DNA of 64,000 nt from a virus. Positions 5,479-62,504 of the stretch are shown piece after piece. The stretch's first letter is position 1. Every line of letters starts with the position of its first letter. The notes below the pieces were generated by a model. That model did no database searches, was not told where the DNA came from, and was given only the letters and a program-made list of their open reading frames with translations. Made by a program: the position numbers and the translations under genes. The stretch spans positions 32,001 through 96,000 of IMG/VR virus record IMGVR_UViG_3300022752_000022; one strand, written 5' to 3'.

Positions 5479-5993
5479 AATACACTTTGATAAAAGAAAC
5501 TGCACCGATATTGAGAGTGCCGTGTGTTGAATTTGATTTTTCTGATCCGCCATGTGATCCGATTGAACTTGCAAATGATCTAAATGAAACAATGATTGCT
5601 AACGATGGTTTAGGTCTTTCTGCTAATCAAGTGGGATTAGAATATCGTGTTTTTGTTGTTCGAACGGAAGAAAACAAACCCCTCGCTTTGTTCAATCCAG
5701 AAATAGTTTCTGTATCTGATAAATTAATTTCTTTAAAAGAGGGCTGTCTTAGTTTTCCGTTATTATATTTAAATGTCAAACGCCCTGAGTGGGTTAGAGT
5801 TCGATATAAAGATCAGTATAGTGAAATTCATACTAAAAGATATATGGGTGTAACATGCCGAGTTGTTCTTCATGAATATGATCATATGGAAGGAAAAGTA
5901 TTTACTCACGCAGCATCAAAATTTGAGTCACAAAGGGCCCTAAGAAAAAGAATGATCTTGAGAAGACGAGTCAACGGACAAAAAGATGATTAA
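5475..5993 (+). CDS. def: Peptide deformylase
   Basis: GLGLSANQ, EGCLS, HEYDH motifs. Confidence 0.95.
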   Translation: MKYTLIKETAPILRVPCVEFDFSDPPCDPIELANDLNETMIANDGLGLSANQVGLEYRVFVVRTEENKPLALFNPEIVSVSDKLISLKEGCLSFPLLYLNVKRPEWVRVRYKDQYSEIHTKRYMGVTCRVVLHEYDHMEGKVFTHAASKFESQRALRKRMILRRRVNGQKDD

Positions 5994-17769: not shown

Positions 17770-17893
17770 GATCATCACCGATTACTTCATGAAAGCATCT
17801 AAAAACTATATTGAAGCATACTTAGCCAAATCTGTAGACAGAGCAGACTTTGCTTACAGAGAAAATCAACTCAAATATAAAGGCATTCTATGA
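17753..17893 (+). CDS. Small protein, DUF3563-like
   Basis: 46 aa (below ORF-track cutoff): ...EAYLAKSVDRADFAYRENQL. Confidence 0.55.
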   Translation: MIAIFKIITDYFMKASKNYIEAYLAKSVDRADFAYRENQLKYKGIL

Positions 17894-60014: not shown

Positions 60015-60329
60015 ATGGTGAATAAACTGATTCGGGATGGCAGAGTTGCTGTCCTTGTTTCTCACGGCTTCGGTGCTGGTTGGTACTCATGGCATTACGA
60101 TGAACGCCTATTATTTGAACCGACGATTGCTGAAATGTTGGAGAAGAATGTTGATATATATGAAATTGAAAAATACTGTGAAAAAACATACGGTGATGAA
60201 ATCTATTACGGTGGCTTAGATGGCCTATCAATTGTCTGGGTGCCAGTAGGAATGCAGTTTCGGATTGAAGAATATGACGGCTCAGAAAGTTTGAAGATGG
60301 AACAAGAAATGCATTGGATTACTGCGTAG
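60015..60329 (+). CDS. Conserved phage hypothetical protein
   Basis: SHGFGAGWYSW, FRIEEYDGSE. Confidence 0.75.
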   Translation: MVNKLIRDGRVAVLVSHGFGAGWYSWHYDERLLFEPTIAEMLEKNVDIYEIEKYCEKTYGDEIYYGGLDGLSIVWVPVGMQFRIEEYDGSESLKMEQEMHWITA

Positions 60330-60339
60330 AGAAGTTCTT

Positions 60340-60347
60340 TATAAATA
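60340..60347 (+). promoter_or_regulatory. T4-type late promoter for the tRNA cluster
   Basis: TATAAATA 4 nt before tRNA-Ile. Confidence 0.75.
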
Positions 60348-60351
60348 GTTT

Positions 60352-60426
60352 CCCGGATTAGCTCAGAGGTAGAGCAACGTCTTGATAAGGCGGAGGCGAA
60401 TGGATCGTTACCATTATTCGGGACCA
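60352..60426 (+). tRNA. tRNA-Ile(GAU)
   Basis: Cloverleaf, loop TTGATAA, atypical T-loop ATCGTTA, encoded CCA. Confidence 0.85.
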
Positions 60427-60507
60427 TATTGAAGCACATTTTGATGCCTATAAGCAGTCAGAGTTGATCGCCTGTCTGACGGTGTGAGATGAATGTGCTT
60501 CAATATG
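60425..60507 (+). ncRNA. Unidentified structured RNA cassette 1
   Basis: Perfect 16-bp stem CATATTGAAGCACATT/AATGTGCTTCAATATG enclosing a GTCAGA/TCTGAC hairpin. Confidence 0.65.
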
Positions 60508-60568
60508 ATAAAGGTCGAGGTGCACCAGATCATTTCTAAAGGTCACTGACACATCGGAAAGACGATGG

Positions 60569-60693
60569 CCATATTGAAGCACATTTAATCGAAAGCATCC
60601 TCAGAACGGAAGTGACTCGCCGGTGAGTATGCAGGTAGAGAGGTGTAAAAAGCCCCCGCTTGTCACGGTTACCTCAAGTGTGTTTCAATATGG
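60569..60693 (+). ncRNA. Unidentified structured RNA cassette 2
   Basis: CCATATTGAAGCACAT/GTGTGTTTCAATATGG stem (two G-U pairs) enclosing a different ~93-nt insert. Confidence 0.65.
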
Positions 60694-60700
60694 GAATTAT

Positions 60701-60776
60701 TCCGGTCGAGCAAGCTAGGTGTAGGCAGTGGACTGTTAATCCATGAAGCCTGGTTCGAATCCAGGGACCGGAGCCA
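60701..60776 (+). tRNA. tRNA-Asn(GUU)
   Basis: GTGGA-CTGTTAA-TCCAT, TTCGAAT, CCA. Confidence 0.92.
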
Positions 60777-60783
60777 GATGTAT

Positions 60784-60861
60784 CTCGGATTAGTTCAGCC
60801 CGGTTAGAATGCCTGCTTTGGGAGCAGGAGGTCGTGAGTTCAAATCCCACATCCGAGACCA
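60784..60861 (+). tRNA. tRNA-Pro(UGG)
   Basis: CCTGC-TTTGGGA-GCAGG, CCA. Confidence 0.93.
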
Positions 60862-60866
60862 GTTTT

Positions 60867-60940
60867 GCCCTCTTAGTTAAATGGCATAACGGTTGATTTG
60901 TAATCATCAATTGGCAGTTCGATTCTGTCAGAGGGCACCA
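60867..60940 (+). tRNA. tRNA-Thr(UGU)
   Basis: GTTGA-TTTGTAA-TCATC, CCA. Confidence 0.9.
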
Positions 60941-60947
60941 GTTTTAT

Positions 60948-61022
60948 CTGATCGTGGTGAAATGGAGATCACAGTAGCCTTCTAAGATTCTATTCCGGGT
61001 TCGAATCCTGGCGGTCAGGCCA
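60948..61022 (+). tRNA. tRNA-Arg(UCU) with mismatched anticodon stem
   Basis: Good acceptor, D and T arms; GTAGC-CTTCTAA-GATTC has two mismatches. Confidence 0.65.
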
Positions 61023-61036
61023 GTAAGGAGATTAAC

Positions 61037-61600
61037 ATGCCAGCGACATGGCTTATTAGCGATACACATTTCGGGCATGACAAAACCTGTACTGTGTTCA
61101 AAAGAGACGATGGTTACCCTCTTAGGCCCTTTAAAGATGCCGAAGAGATGGACGAGGAAATGATTAAGCGTTGGAACGAACGTGTTGATAAGAATGACAA
61201 AGTATATCACTTGGGAGACGTAGTCATTGCTCGTAAAAGTCTTGCTACTCTTAGTAGACTTAACGGAGACAAAGTTCTTATTAAAGGTAACCATGATATC
61301 TTTAAACTTCATGATTACACCGTACACTTTAGAGATATCAGAGGTTATCATGTGATGTCTGGTCTTATTCTTAGTCACGTTCCAGTACATGCTGATTCCA
61401 TCGAAAGATTTGGGTGCAATGTTCATGGACATCTTCACCATAGAAGAGTGATGAAAGATAATAAGATTGATCCGAGATACTTTAATGTGAGTGTAGAGTG
61501 TATCGACTTTGCTCCTATTCTTCTTGAAGATCTGAAGAAAAGAATTATGGAGCAGGGTGGGGGTGTCGAGATGAAAAAGTCTCGACACGAAGTAGATTAG
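61037..61600 (+). CDS. Calcineurin-like metallophosphoesterase
   Basis: SDTHFGH, HLGDV, KGNHD, SHVP, HGHLH. Confidence 0.92.
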   Translation: MPATWLISDTHFGHDKTCTVFKRDDGYPLRPFKDAEEMDEEMIKRWNERVDKNDKVYHLGDVVIARKSLATLSRLNGDKVLIKGNHDIFKLHDYTVHFRDIRGYHVMSGLILSHVPVHADSIERFGCNVHGHLHHRRVMKDNKIDPRYFNVSVECIDFAPILLEDLKKRIMEQGGGVEMKKSRHEVD

Positions 61601-61675
61601 CTGATGTAGATCAGTGGTAGATCGCTTTCTTGGTAAGAAAGAAGTCATGAGTTCGATTCTGTCAAGAGGTTACCA
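61600..61675 (+). pseudogene. Chimeric/degenerate tRNA-Thr(GGU)
   Basis: Intact D and anticodon arms (CTTTC-TTGGTAA-GAAAG), but T-stem and acceptor strands do not pair. Confidence 0.7.
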
Positions 61676-62429: not shown

Positions 62430-62504
62430 ATCACCGTCGTTCAACGGAAAGGACATAGGTCTTCTAAACCTAGAATAGGGGTTCGACTCCTCTCGGTGGT
62501 GCCA
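62430..62504 (+). tRNA. tRNA-Arg(UCU)
   Basis: TAGGT-CTTCTAA-ACCTA, TTCGACT, CCA. Confidence 0.92.

What the first reader, a model, noticed from the sequence alone, without database searches (positions are those of the whole stretch)
60424..60693. Two RNA cassettes closed by the same 16-bp stem but with different cargo, inside the tRNA operon
Seen in sequence: CCATATTGAAGCACATT occurs at 60424 and 60569, each with a downstream complementary arm (60492-60507 perfect; 60678-60693 with two G-U pairs). The G-U substitutions keep pairing, which points to RNA-level structure. The enclosed sequences (51 and ~93 nt) are unrelated to each other and structured. The first arm overlaps the CCA of tRNA-Ile. 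The spacer holds another hairpin, CATCG-GAAAGA-CGATG. Inference: a reusable processing or protein-binding stem (for example an RNase III substrate) that releases or displays variable small RNAs, possibly decoys or antitoxin-like RNAs. T4 has uncharacterised stable RNAs in its tRNA region, but I cannot assign these to a family.
Basis: partly seen in the sequence, partly recalled or inferred. Interest (0 to 1): 0.72.

Follow-up and report, generated by a model that had tools for sequence, protein, structure and literature searches.

The report
Constant-stem RNA cassettes in phage tRNA operon
Between two tRNA genes of an uncultured freshwater T4-like phage sit two small structured RNAs, each closed by the same roughly 18-base-pair stem that starts on the CCA end of the RNA before it; they belong to a large phage-only family of exchangeable RNA cassettes that I could not find described, and whose job is still unknown.

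Summary
The motif occurs nowhere else in the complete 149.6-kb phage genome.

It is one instance of a large family: over 116 IMG/VR viral contigs and at least 168 elements, but only one 1.5-kb MAG contig among 185,579 prokaryote species genomes. The stem is about 19 bp with two fixed wobble pairs. It encloses 25-193 nt of very diverse cargo (101 clusters among 149).

- **RNA level:** oriented by the neighbouring tRNA strand alone, mismatches are G-U 264 against A-C 36.
- **Placement:** 60 of 146 elements start exactly on a tRNA CCA end.
- **Cargo:** both window cargoes are conserved, covarying RNAs, and they never occur without the stem.
- **Unit:** the cassette (stem plus cargo) is inherited as a unit. 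A 92%-identical relative lacks cassette 1 plus the spacer, an indel bounded by the repeated 5' arm.

No Rfam family, cultured-phage match or paper was found. The closest known RNA is phage T5 stable RNAIII. Ro60, RNase III, RtcB and dsRBD genes are absent from this phage.

Most likely the stem is a double-strand-specific processing stalk, cut by host RNase III, that frees the tRNA end and releases a stem-capped small RNA. This is unproven.

This scan has met the same family repeatedly on other phage DNA.

The parts
60340..60347 (+). TATAAATA, a T4-type late-promoter-like octamer 4 nt upstream of tRNA-Ile. It is a possible start of the tRNA/cassette transcript.
   Evidence: It is one of 9 copies in the window (5.4 expected), so this is inference only. 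No terminator-like site lies between it and 61037.
60352..60426 (+). tRNA-Ile(GAU). Its 3' CCA (60424-60426) forms the base of stem 1.
   Evidence: ARAGORN; Rfam tRNA 47.9 bits.
60424..60441 (+). 5' arm of cassette 1 (CCATATTGAAGCACATTT).
60441..60491 (+). Cargo 1, 51 nt. It is a conserved small RNA with a 7-bp covarying hairpin (conserved loop AGUUGAUCGC) and conserved flanks.
   Evidence: 19 further loci were found by cargo sequence alone. Every copy that lies whole within its contig is inside the family stem; one, L142, is cut by the contig end after its 5' arm. In alignment A1, 6 of 7 hairpin pairs have changes on both sides, and 0 of 500 shuffles reach the covariation score.
60492..60507 (+). 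3' arm of cassette 1. It is a perfect complement; this copy lacks the two family-typical G-U pairs.
60508..60571 (+). Spacer RNA of about 64 nt, ending in the hairpin CATCG-GAAAGA-CGATG, then G and CCA. That CCA opens stem 2.
   Evidence: The same hairpin type (5-bp stem, GAAAGA loop, then N-CCA) with different stem letters precedes stems in L070, L099 and L117. The rest of the spacer was found in no other viral contig and folds only weakly better than shuffles (z = -1.7).
60569..60586 (+). 5' arm of cassette 2.
60587..60675 (+). Cargo 2, about 89-91 nt. It is a conserved two-domain structured RNA.
   Evidence: 14 further loci were found by cargo sequence alone, all inside the family stem. Alignment A2 shows compensatory changes in two helices. 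A relative is present in RNA-library contigs of several river and freshwater studies, with similarity ending at 60569 and 60697.
60676..60693 (+). 3' arm of cassette 2, with the two family-typical G-U pairs.
60701..61022 (+). tRNA-Asn, tRNA-Pro, tRNA-Thr and tRNA-Arg. They follow 7 nt after stem 2 on the same strand.

Best explanation
The two cassettes are transcribed with the tRNAs as one precursor. In each, a conserved double-stranded stalk of about 18-19 bp pairs the CCA end of the preceding RNA (tRNA-Ile, then the spacer RNA) with the sequence just before the next RNA.

A CCA end locked in such a helix cannot be trimmed by single-strand exonucleases or charged. The stalk therefore has to be cut by a double-strand-specific endonuclease, most likely the host's RNase III. 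That cut does two things:
- It frees the upstream 3' end for final trimming to CCA.
- It releases the cargo as a small RNA capped by the upper part of the stalk, which should make it stable.

The cargoes are independent, conserved, structured small RNAs of unknown function.

At the DNA level the cassette (stalk plus cargo) is an exchangeable module. It turns up in unrelated tRNA-array contexts. It is gained or lost by recombination in the repeated arms.

Shown: RNA-level pairing, covariation, CCA anchoring, cargo conservation, modular inheritance, and the absence of a phage-encoded partner of known type. Inferred: transcription, the cut, the enzyme, and the stability and function of the released RNAs.
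For: - **Strand-specific pairing.** 146 distinct elements, oriented only by the nearest tRNA strand, give WC 2283, G-U 264, A-C 36 over the stem. They sit on the same strand as the tRNAs 141 to 15.
- **Fixed wobble pairs** at stem positions 10 and 15 exchange with A-U/G-C and C-G/U-A. Other positions show full flips.
- **Anchoring.** 60 of 146 elements start exactly on a tRNA CCA, behind 12 different tRNA types. 17 end flush with the next tRNA.
- **Cargo is under selection.** In the cargo 1 hairpin, 6 of 7 pairs covary. Cargo 2 has compensatory changes. Every complete copy of cargo 1 and all 15 copies of cargo 2, retrieved by cargo sequence alone, lie inside the stalk.
- **Module behaviour.** 56 of 96 same-cargo pairs have unlike flanks on both sides. 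Relative L152 (91-93% identity in the flanks) has tRNA-Ile, cassette 2, tRNA-Asn and lacks the 145-nt unit bounded by the repeated 5' arm.
- **T5 precedent.** GenBank AY543070 annotates RNAIII as a stable RNA. Its stalk CCACAATTGAAAA.../...TTTTCAATTGTGG starts on the CCA end of RNAI and ends at tRNA-His. The annotated ends lie inside the stalk and leave a 2-nt 3' overhang.
- **RNase III precedent.** RNase III is reported to take part in T4 tRNA maturation (review PMC4810235).
- **RNase III rules.** For a cut 4 nt past CCA, the positions that E. coli RNase III requires to be A-U or U-A (D and D' in PMC6212723) are stem positions 9 and 2. These are A-U in 146 and 144 of 146 elements.
- **No phage-encoded enzyme.** The phage and 42 other element-bearing records encode no RNase III, so the enzyme would be the host's.
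Against: - No RNA ends were mapped. The RNA runs available are assembled contigs, which cannot show ends or prove transcription.
- The stalk sequence is conserved far beyond what pairing needs. Cells with changes on both sides are 12 of 323 in the stalk against 33 of 119 in the cargo hairpin, in the same 17 sequences. RNase III is not known to demand this.
- In the register that fits D and D', the two pairs between the cuts are both U-A. In E. coli they usually include a G-C pair.
- The host is unknown, and E. coli rules may not apply.
- I could not confirm that the T5 RNAIII ends in the GenBank record were measured. Its 3' end also coincides with the tRNA-His 5' end, which RNase P would make anyway.
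- The T5 stalk shares only CCA plus ATTGAA/TTCAAT with this family, and no intermediate forms were found.
Confidence: 0.5

Rival explanations
1. The stalk is mainly a sequence-specific handle. An as yet unidentified phage or host protein (or RNA) recognises its constant sequence and the two fixed wobble pairs. It thereby binds, protects, localises or uses whichever cargo is attached, as Ro60 does with Y RNAs. Processing is secondary.
For: - The stalk sequence is about 8 times less variable than the covarying cargo hairpin in the same sequences.
- The two G-U pairs are at fixed positions.
- More than 100 cargo types share one stalk.
- Arm variants travel with their cargo and are not homogenised within genomes. 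Within-contig arm distance is 4.0 against 4.2 between contigs. A common external constraint explains this better than gene conversion does.
Against: - No candidate partner exists. TROVE/Ro60 is absent from this complete genome and from 50 other records, and dsRBD and RtcB are absent here.
- The helix has no bulge or internal loop of the kind that sequence-specific dsRNA binders usually read.
- The element occurs in phages from 98 kb to 400 kb that need not share accessory proteins.
Confidence: 0.22
2. The cassettes are selfish passengers. They are small mobile inserts that spread between phage tRNA arrays by recombination. They are tolerated because the stalk lets the cell cut them out of the precursor RNA, like an intron. 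The cargo has no function for the phage.
For: - The same cargo occurs in unlike flanks (56 of 96 pairs).
- A presence/absence difference against L152 is bounded by the arm repeat.
- Cargo diversity is huge and cassette numbers per phage vary.
- The family is confined to viral DNA.
Against: - Cargo families keep conserved single-stranded segments and compensatory helix changes across contexts. This indicates selection on the RNA itself.
- The cargoes never occur free of the stalk, and the stalk carries no coding capacity or recognisable mobility enzyme.
- No target-site duplication is seen.
Confidence: 0.15
3. It is a DNA-level inverted-repeat element (MITE-like, or a cruciform or protein-binding site) with no role as RNA.
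For: It has terminal inverted repeats with variable interiors, several copies, and mobility.
Against: - Mismatches are strand-specific (G-U 264 against A-C 36) when orientation is set independently by the tRNAs.
- The elements share the tRNA strand 141 to 15.
- The junctions are exact at the CCA end and at tRNA 5' ends.
- The cargo helices covary.
Confidence: 0.03

Closest known systems
Phage T5 RNAIII (GenBank AY543070, 'stable RNA with unknown functions'), in the T5 tRNA region
   Same: - It sits inside a tRNA array on the tRNA strand.
- Its stalk of about 19 bp begins on the CCA end of the preceding RNA (RNAI) and ends at the next tRNA (His).
- The arms share CCA-N-ATTGAA / TTCAAT-N-TGG with this family.
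- The stalk encloses a structured insert of about 70 nt.
   Different: - The rest of the stalk sequence differs, and T5 has one extra base between CCA and TTGAA.
- No intermediate forms were found in 150 loci.
- There is a single copy in T5, and it is not known to be a swappable cassette.
- Other T5 stalk-closed RNAs (RNAIV, RNA2H) use unrelated stems.
- Function is unknown in both.
RNase III processing stalks (stems flanking 16S/23S rRNA in rRNA operons; phage T7 early-RNA sites such as R1.1)
   Same: It is a long helix formed by sequences flanking a stable RNA in a polycistronic precursor. Cutting it separates neighbouring RNAs and leaves ends for final trimming. This rests on established knowledge and on PMC6212723.
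   Different: - Here one nearly invariant stalk sequence is reused for more than 100 different cargoes in hundreds of phages.
- It is anchored on a CCA end.
- Cleavage has not been shown.
Phage T4 species 1 and 2 RNAs (rnaC, rnaD)
   Same: They are small stable RNAs of unknown function, co-transcribed with phage tRNAs. rnaD ends in CCA, like the spacer RNA here.
   Different: They have no closing stalk of this kind and no sequence similarity. They resemble the spacer or tRNA-like RNAs between cassettes rather than the cassettes themselves.
Y RNAs with Ro60/Rsr (bacterial YrlA/YrlB)
   Same: The RNA is modular: a terminal stem made of the 5' and 3' ends, plus a variable, sometimes tRNA-like module. 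About 7 of 146 cargoes carry a T-arm-like motif.
   Different: - There is no TROVE gene in this phage or in 50 element-bearing records.
- The helix is uninterrupted.
- No Rfam Y RNA or YrlA match appears even at E <= 10.
tRNA-linked small RNAs of murine gammaherpesvirus 68 (tRNA-miRNA encoded RNAs). Recalled from memory, not tested.
   Same: A viral tRNA is followed directly by hairpin RNAs that are released by tRNA-processing enzymes.
   Different: It is a eukaryotic virus with different enzymes, and its hairpins are miRNA precursors. There is no constant stalk with swappable cargo.

Membership tests
RNase III processing site | Uninterrupted double helix of about two turns (about 20-22 bp) | tested here: met
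   19 pairs (positions -1 to 17) are paired in over 90% of 146 elements. In the window the stems are 16-17 bp (cassette 1) and 18 bp (cassette 2).
RNase III processing site | Cleavage of both strands leaving 2-nt 3' overhangs, dependent on RNase III | not testable with these tools
   Only assembled RNA contigs were available. The annotated ends of T5 RNAIII fit a 2-nt overhang, but I could not verify their experimental basis.
RNase III processing site | E. coli in vivo rules (PMC6212723): positions D/D' are A-U or U-A, and the two pairs between the cuts usually include a G-C | tested here: inconclusive
   For a cut 4 nt past CCA, D and D' fall on positions 9 and 2. These are A-U in 146 and 144 of 146 elements. 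But the two central pairs are both U-A. The scoring table of the paper is not held, and the host is not E. coli.
T5 RNAIII-type stable RNA | Stalk that starts on the CCA end of the preceding RNA and ends at the next tRNA, inside a phage tRNA array | tested here: met
T5 RNAIII-type stable RNA | Sequence homology of stalk or insert | tested here: inconclusive
   Only CCA plus ATTGAA/TTCAAT is shared, with a 1-nt offset. There are no intermediates. blastn of the region against cultured phages finds only tRNA matches.
T5 RNAIII-type stable RNA | Accumulates as a discrete stable RNA in infected cells | not testable with these tools
   No raw RNA reads were available.
Y RNA / Ro60 system | Ro60 (TROVE) protein encoded by the same genome or locus | tested here: not met
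   PF05731 is absent from this complete genome and from 50 viral records reached from the scan loci, 10 of them at least 90% complete; most, though not all, of these carry an element. The control genomes were detected.
Y RNA / Ro60 system | Match to the Rfam Y RNA or YrlA models | tested here: not met
   Nothing but tRNA at gathering score, and only two chance-level hits at E <= 10.
MITE-like DNA transposable element | Strand-neutral terminal inverted repeats with target-site duplication | tested here: not met
   The mismatches are strand-specific. The flanks ACCA...UGGU are complementary, not direct repeats. The one indel seen is bounded by the arm repeat itself.
T4 rnaC / rnaD | Sequence or structural similarity to T4 species 1 or 2 RNA | tested here: not met
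   The T4 RNAs have no such stalk.

The most novel reading that the evidence does not exclude
The constant stalk is the shared 'plug' of a phage RNA cassette system. An unidentified factor reads its sequence and its two fixed wobble pairs. Through that factor, more than a hundred different small structured RNAs (decoys, sponges or aptamers aimed at host defences or host RNA enzymes) are expressed, stabilised and swapped between phages. This would be an RNA counterpart of integron gene cassettes.
Probability: 0.2. Interest if true: 0.85.

Novelty: new variant of a known kind. Interest (0 to 1): 0.6.

Why it matters
Phage tRNA clusters have been known since the 1970s to encode extra stable RNAs, such as T4 species 1 and 2 and T5 RNA I and III. 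Their function is still unknown.

This family shows that such RNAs are not oddities of two laboratory phages. They are part of a widespread, modular system in environmental phages. One nearly invariant stalk is anchored on a CCA end and carries over a hundred conserved cargo RNAs that move between genomes as units.

- The stalk gives a simple sequence handle for finding such RNAs, and it marks their likely boundaries.
- T5 RNAIII is a tractable laboratory relative in E. coli.
- If the cargoes act on host defence or RNA metabolism, this would be a large untapped set of phage regulatory RNAs.
- If the stalk is only a processing signal, it is still a compact natural device for releasing arbitrary small RNAs from a tRNA transcript.

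Tried and rejected
- **Rfam 15.** At gathering score over the whole window, and at E <= 10 over 60300-60800, only tRNAs and two chance-level hits appeared.
- **Cultured phages (INPHARED).** blastn of the region finds only tRNA-Ile matches. A 30-nt stem query at E <= 10 gives only chance hits inside protein genes.
- **Literature.** The arm sequences, T5 stable RNAs, RNase III with tRNA arrays, and T5 transcriptomes were searched. No description of the family was found.
- **Ro60/Y RNA.** TROVE is absent here and in 50 other records.
- **Other phage-encoded partners.** RNase III, RtcB and the dsRNA-binding domain are absent.
- **RNA evidence.** Four metatranscriptome runs hold a relative of cassette 2, but only as assembled contigs with long flanks. 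They show neither ends nor transcription.
- **Concerted evolution of arms within genomes.** None was seen: 4.0 against 4.2 differences per 32 nt.
- **Forms bridging to the T5 stalk.** None were found in about 150 loci.
- **Spacer RNA.** Its terminal 20-mer is in no other viral contig.
- **Hairpin just before N-CCA in elements not preceded by a tRNA.** Only 26 of 85 have one, against 15% in slid controls. This is a tendency, not a rule.
- **Near-matches of the arm at 17806 and 45938.** They have no partner arm, so I take them as chance.
- **RNase III scoring matrix.** The supplement of PMC6212723 is not held.
- **Prokaryote genomes.** One hit, on a 1.5-kb contig of a Ca. Planktophila MAG. It is probably binned phage DNA and is no basis for naming a host.

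Full report
**What is in the window**

The genome is a complete 149.6-kb IMG/VR virus record with terminal repeats and 36% GC. Its gp43-type DNA polymerase is about 55% identical to those of T4-like cyanophages. DNA runs that hold the stretch are mostly freshwater and lake metagenomes.

On the + strand, behind a TATAAATA octamer, the order is as follows:
- tRNA-Ile(GAU), 60352-60426.
- Cassette 1: arm 60424-60441, 51-nt cargo, arm 60492-60507.
- A spacer of about 64 nt that ends in a GAAAGA-loop hairpin followed by G-CCA.
- Cassette 2: arm 60569-60586, cargo of about 90 nt, arm 60676-60693 with two G-U pairs.
- Seven bases later, tRNA-Asn, tRNA-Pro, tRNA-Thr and tRNA-Arg.

The 16-mer with at most 2 mismatches occurs only at these four places in the whole genome. 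Each cassette folds with z about -5 against shuffles.

**It is a family**

In nearly all of them the motif has an inverted partner 45-130 nt downstream, often several times per contig. With relaxed matching I collected 168 physical elements.

The sense-strand consensus is ACCAUAUUGAAGCACAUU, then cargo, then AGUGUGUUUCAAUAUGGU.

To avoid circularity I oriented each element only by the strand of the nearest tRNA. In 146 distinct elements the stem runs from position -1 to 17 (19 bp):
- Watson-Crick 2283, G-U 264, A-C 36.
- Position 10 is G-U in 81 elements, A-U in 33 and G-C in 30.
- Position 15 is U-G in 122, C-G in 14 and U-A in 9.
- Positions 6, 7, 13 and 17 show full compensatory flips.

The structure is therefore selected on the transcribed strand.

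The elements lie on the tRNA strand 141 to 15, at a median of 8 nt from a tRNA. Sixty of 146 start exactly on the CCA of a tRNA, behind twelve different tRNA types. Seventeen end flush with the 5' end of the next tRNA.

A structured pattern found a single hit among 185,579 prokaryote species genomes, on a 1.5-kb MAG contig. No cultured phage in INPHARED carries the stem.

**The cargo is real RNA, and the cassette is the unit**

Cargo is extremely diverse: 149 cargoes fall into 101 clusters, with a median length of 51 nt.

I then searched by cargo sequence alone, which does not depend on the stem.
- Cargo 1 was found in 19 further loci and cargo 2 in 14.
- Every complete copy lies inside the family stem; one cargo 1 copy, L142, is cut by the contig end after its 5' arm.
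- In the cargo 1 alignment (17 distinct sequences) the inner 7-bp hairpin has 6 pairs with changes on both sides. Its loop and flanks stay constant. No shuffle of 500 reaches the observed covariation, and slid controls collapse.
- Cargo 2 shows compensatory changes in two helices.

Of 96 pairs of elements with like cargo, 56 have unlike flanks on both sides.

Arm variants travel with their cargo and are not homogenised within a genome: 4.0 against 4.2 differences.

A relative with 91-93% identity in the flanking genes (L152) has tRNA-Ile, then cassette 2, then tRNA-Asn. Compared with it, the window has an extra 145-nt unit (cargo 1, arm R1, spacer, arm L2). The indel is bounded by the 18-nt direct repeat of the 5' arm. 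This is a natural gain or loss of a cassette by recombination in the arms.

RNA-library contigs from several river and freshwater studies carry a cassette 2 relative in yet another context. Similarity ends exactly at 60569 and 60697.

**How it most likely works**

A tRNA whose CCA is locked in a 19-bp helix cannot be finished by single-strand 3' exonucleases or be charged. Sixty elements sit on real tRNA ends, so the helix must be opened by an endonuclease that accepts double-stranded RNA. RNase III is the obvious candidate.

- **No phage enzyme.** This phage and 42 other element-bearing records (7 of them near complete) encode no RNase III. The enzyme would be the host's.
- **T4 precedent.** RNase III is reported to take part in T4 tRNA maturation (PMC4810235).
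- **Closest known RNA.** T5 RNAIII is annotated in GenBank AY543070 as a stable RNA of unknown function. Its stalk starts on the CCA end of RNAI, shares CCA-N-ATTGAA / TTCAAT-N-TGG with this family, and ends at tRNA-His.
  - The annotated RNAIII starts 4 nt past the CCA and ends so that a 2-nt 3' overhang is left. That is the RNase III signature.
  - I could not check how those ends were determined.
- **E. coli rules.** PMC6212723 states that positions D and D' must be A-U or U-A. For a cut 4 nt past CCA, these fall on the two most invariant A-U pairs of the stem (146 and 144 of 146).
  - However, the two pairs between the cuts are both U-A rather than including a G-C.
  - That check is therefore inconclusive.

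The cut would leave the cargo capped by about 12 bp of stalk, a form expected to be stable.

**What does not fit**

In the same 17 sequences, cells with changes on both sides make up 28% of the cargo hairpin but under 4% of the stalk. The stalk is therefore constrained in sequence, not only in pairing.

Homogenisation by recombination within genomes is not supported. This keeps alive the rival that the stalk is a sequence-specific handle for an unknown factor.

Known candidates are excluded:
- Ro60 is absent here and in 50 other records.
- RtcB and the dsRNA-binding domain are absent here.

A purely selfish, functionless insert is disfavoured by the selection seen on the cargo. A DNA-only element is disfavoured by the strand asymmetry.

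**Novelty and context**

I found nothing in Rfam 15 or in the papers searched.

Earlier notes of this scan describe the same family on many other phage genomes and reach similar readings. I treated them as leads.
- The T5 lead held up on inspection.
- The Ro60 lead did not hold for this phage or for the 50 records tested.
- T4 rnaC and rnaD resemble the spacer RNAs, not the cassettes.

I class the finding as a new variant of a known kind: stable small RNAs and processing stalks of phage tRNA operons. Its distinctive, undescribed property is one constant CCA-anchored stalk shared by over a hundred exchangeable cargo RNAs.

Noticed in passing
window 61600-61672 (+): Rfam calls a tRNA here (32.8 bits, gathering score 29) that ARAGORN does not. 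It has D-arm-like and anticodon-arm-like parts (loop UUGGUAA) and ends in ACCA. I could not form an acceptor stem by eye. It overlaps the end of the phosphoesterase ORF and the start of the next ORF. It may be a degenerate tRNA or a tRNA-like RNA.
   Followed up: partly
window 60948-61022 and 62430-62504 (+); L152:8973-9049: There are two different tRNA-Arg(UCU) genes. They bracket a 1.4-kb segment holding a phosphoesterase gene, a 2OG-Fe(II) oxygenase-like gene and a 190-nt ORF-free structured stretch. The close relative L152 has a single tRNA-Arg at this place, of the second type. The segment looks like an insertion next to a tRNA gene.
   Followed up: partly
genome C1:109084-109505 (window coordinate about 77084, outside the window): ARAGORN finds a permuted (two-piece) tmRNA gene with tag ...ANDERFALAA. 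This form is typical of alphaproteobacteria and a few other lineages, so it is a possible host clue. No family stalk lies in or next to it.
   Followed up: partly
L152:7364-8220: The relative carries two extra ORFs (121 and 144 aa) between the homologue of window ORF 60015-60329 and tRNA-Ile. They are absent from the window.
   Followed up: no
L070:889, L099:299, L117:3237 and window 60552-60571: A recurrent small hairpin (5-bp stem with varying letters, constant GAAAGA loop) is followed by one base and then the CCA that opens a stalk. Other recurrent pre-stalk hairpins are GCCAGCAACACUGGC and GCCAGUUUAGGGACUGGC.
   Followed up: partly
L126:6839-6941 and 5809-5980 (T5 RNAIV, RNA2H): Two further annotated T5 stable RNAs are also closed by long terminal stems. 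Their sequences are unrelated to RNAIII or to the family stalk.
   Followed up: partly
cargo 1 loop, window 60463-60472, and variants in L117, L128, L133: The conserved hairpin loop reads UUGAUCGCC, or UUGAUCACCU in three relatives. The latter resembles the GAUCACCU stretch near the 3' end of 16S rRNA (from memory). A similar UUGAUGCC opens the cargo. The significance is unknown and it may be chance.
   Followed up: no
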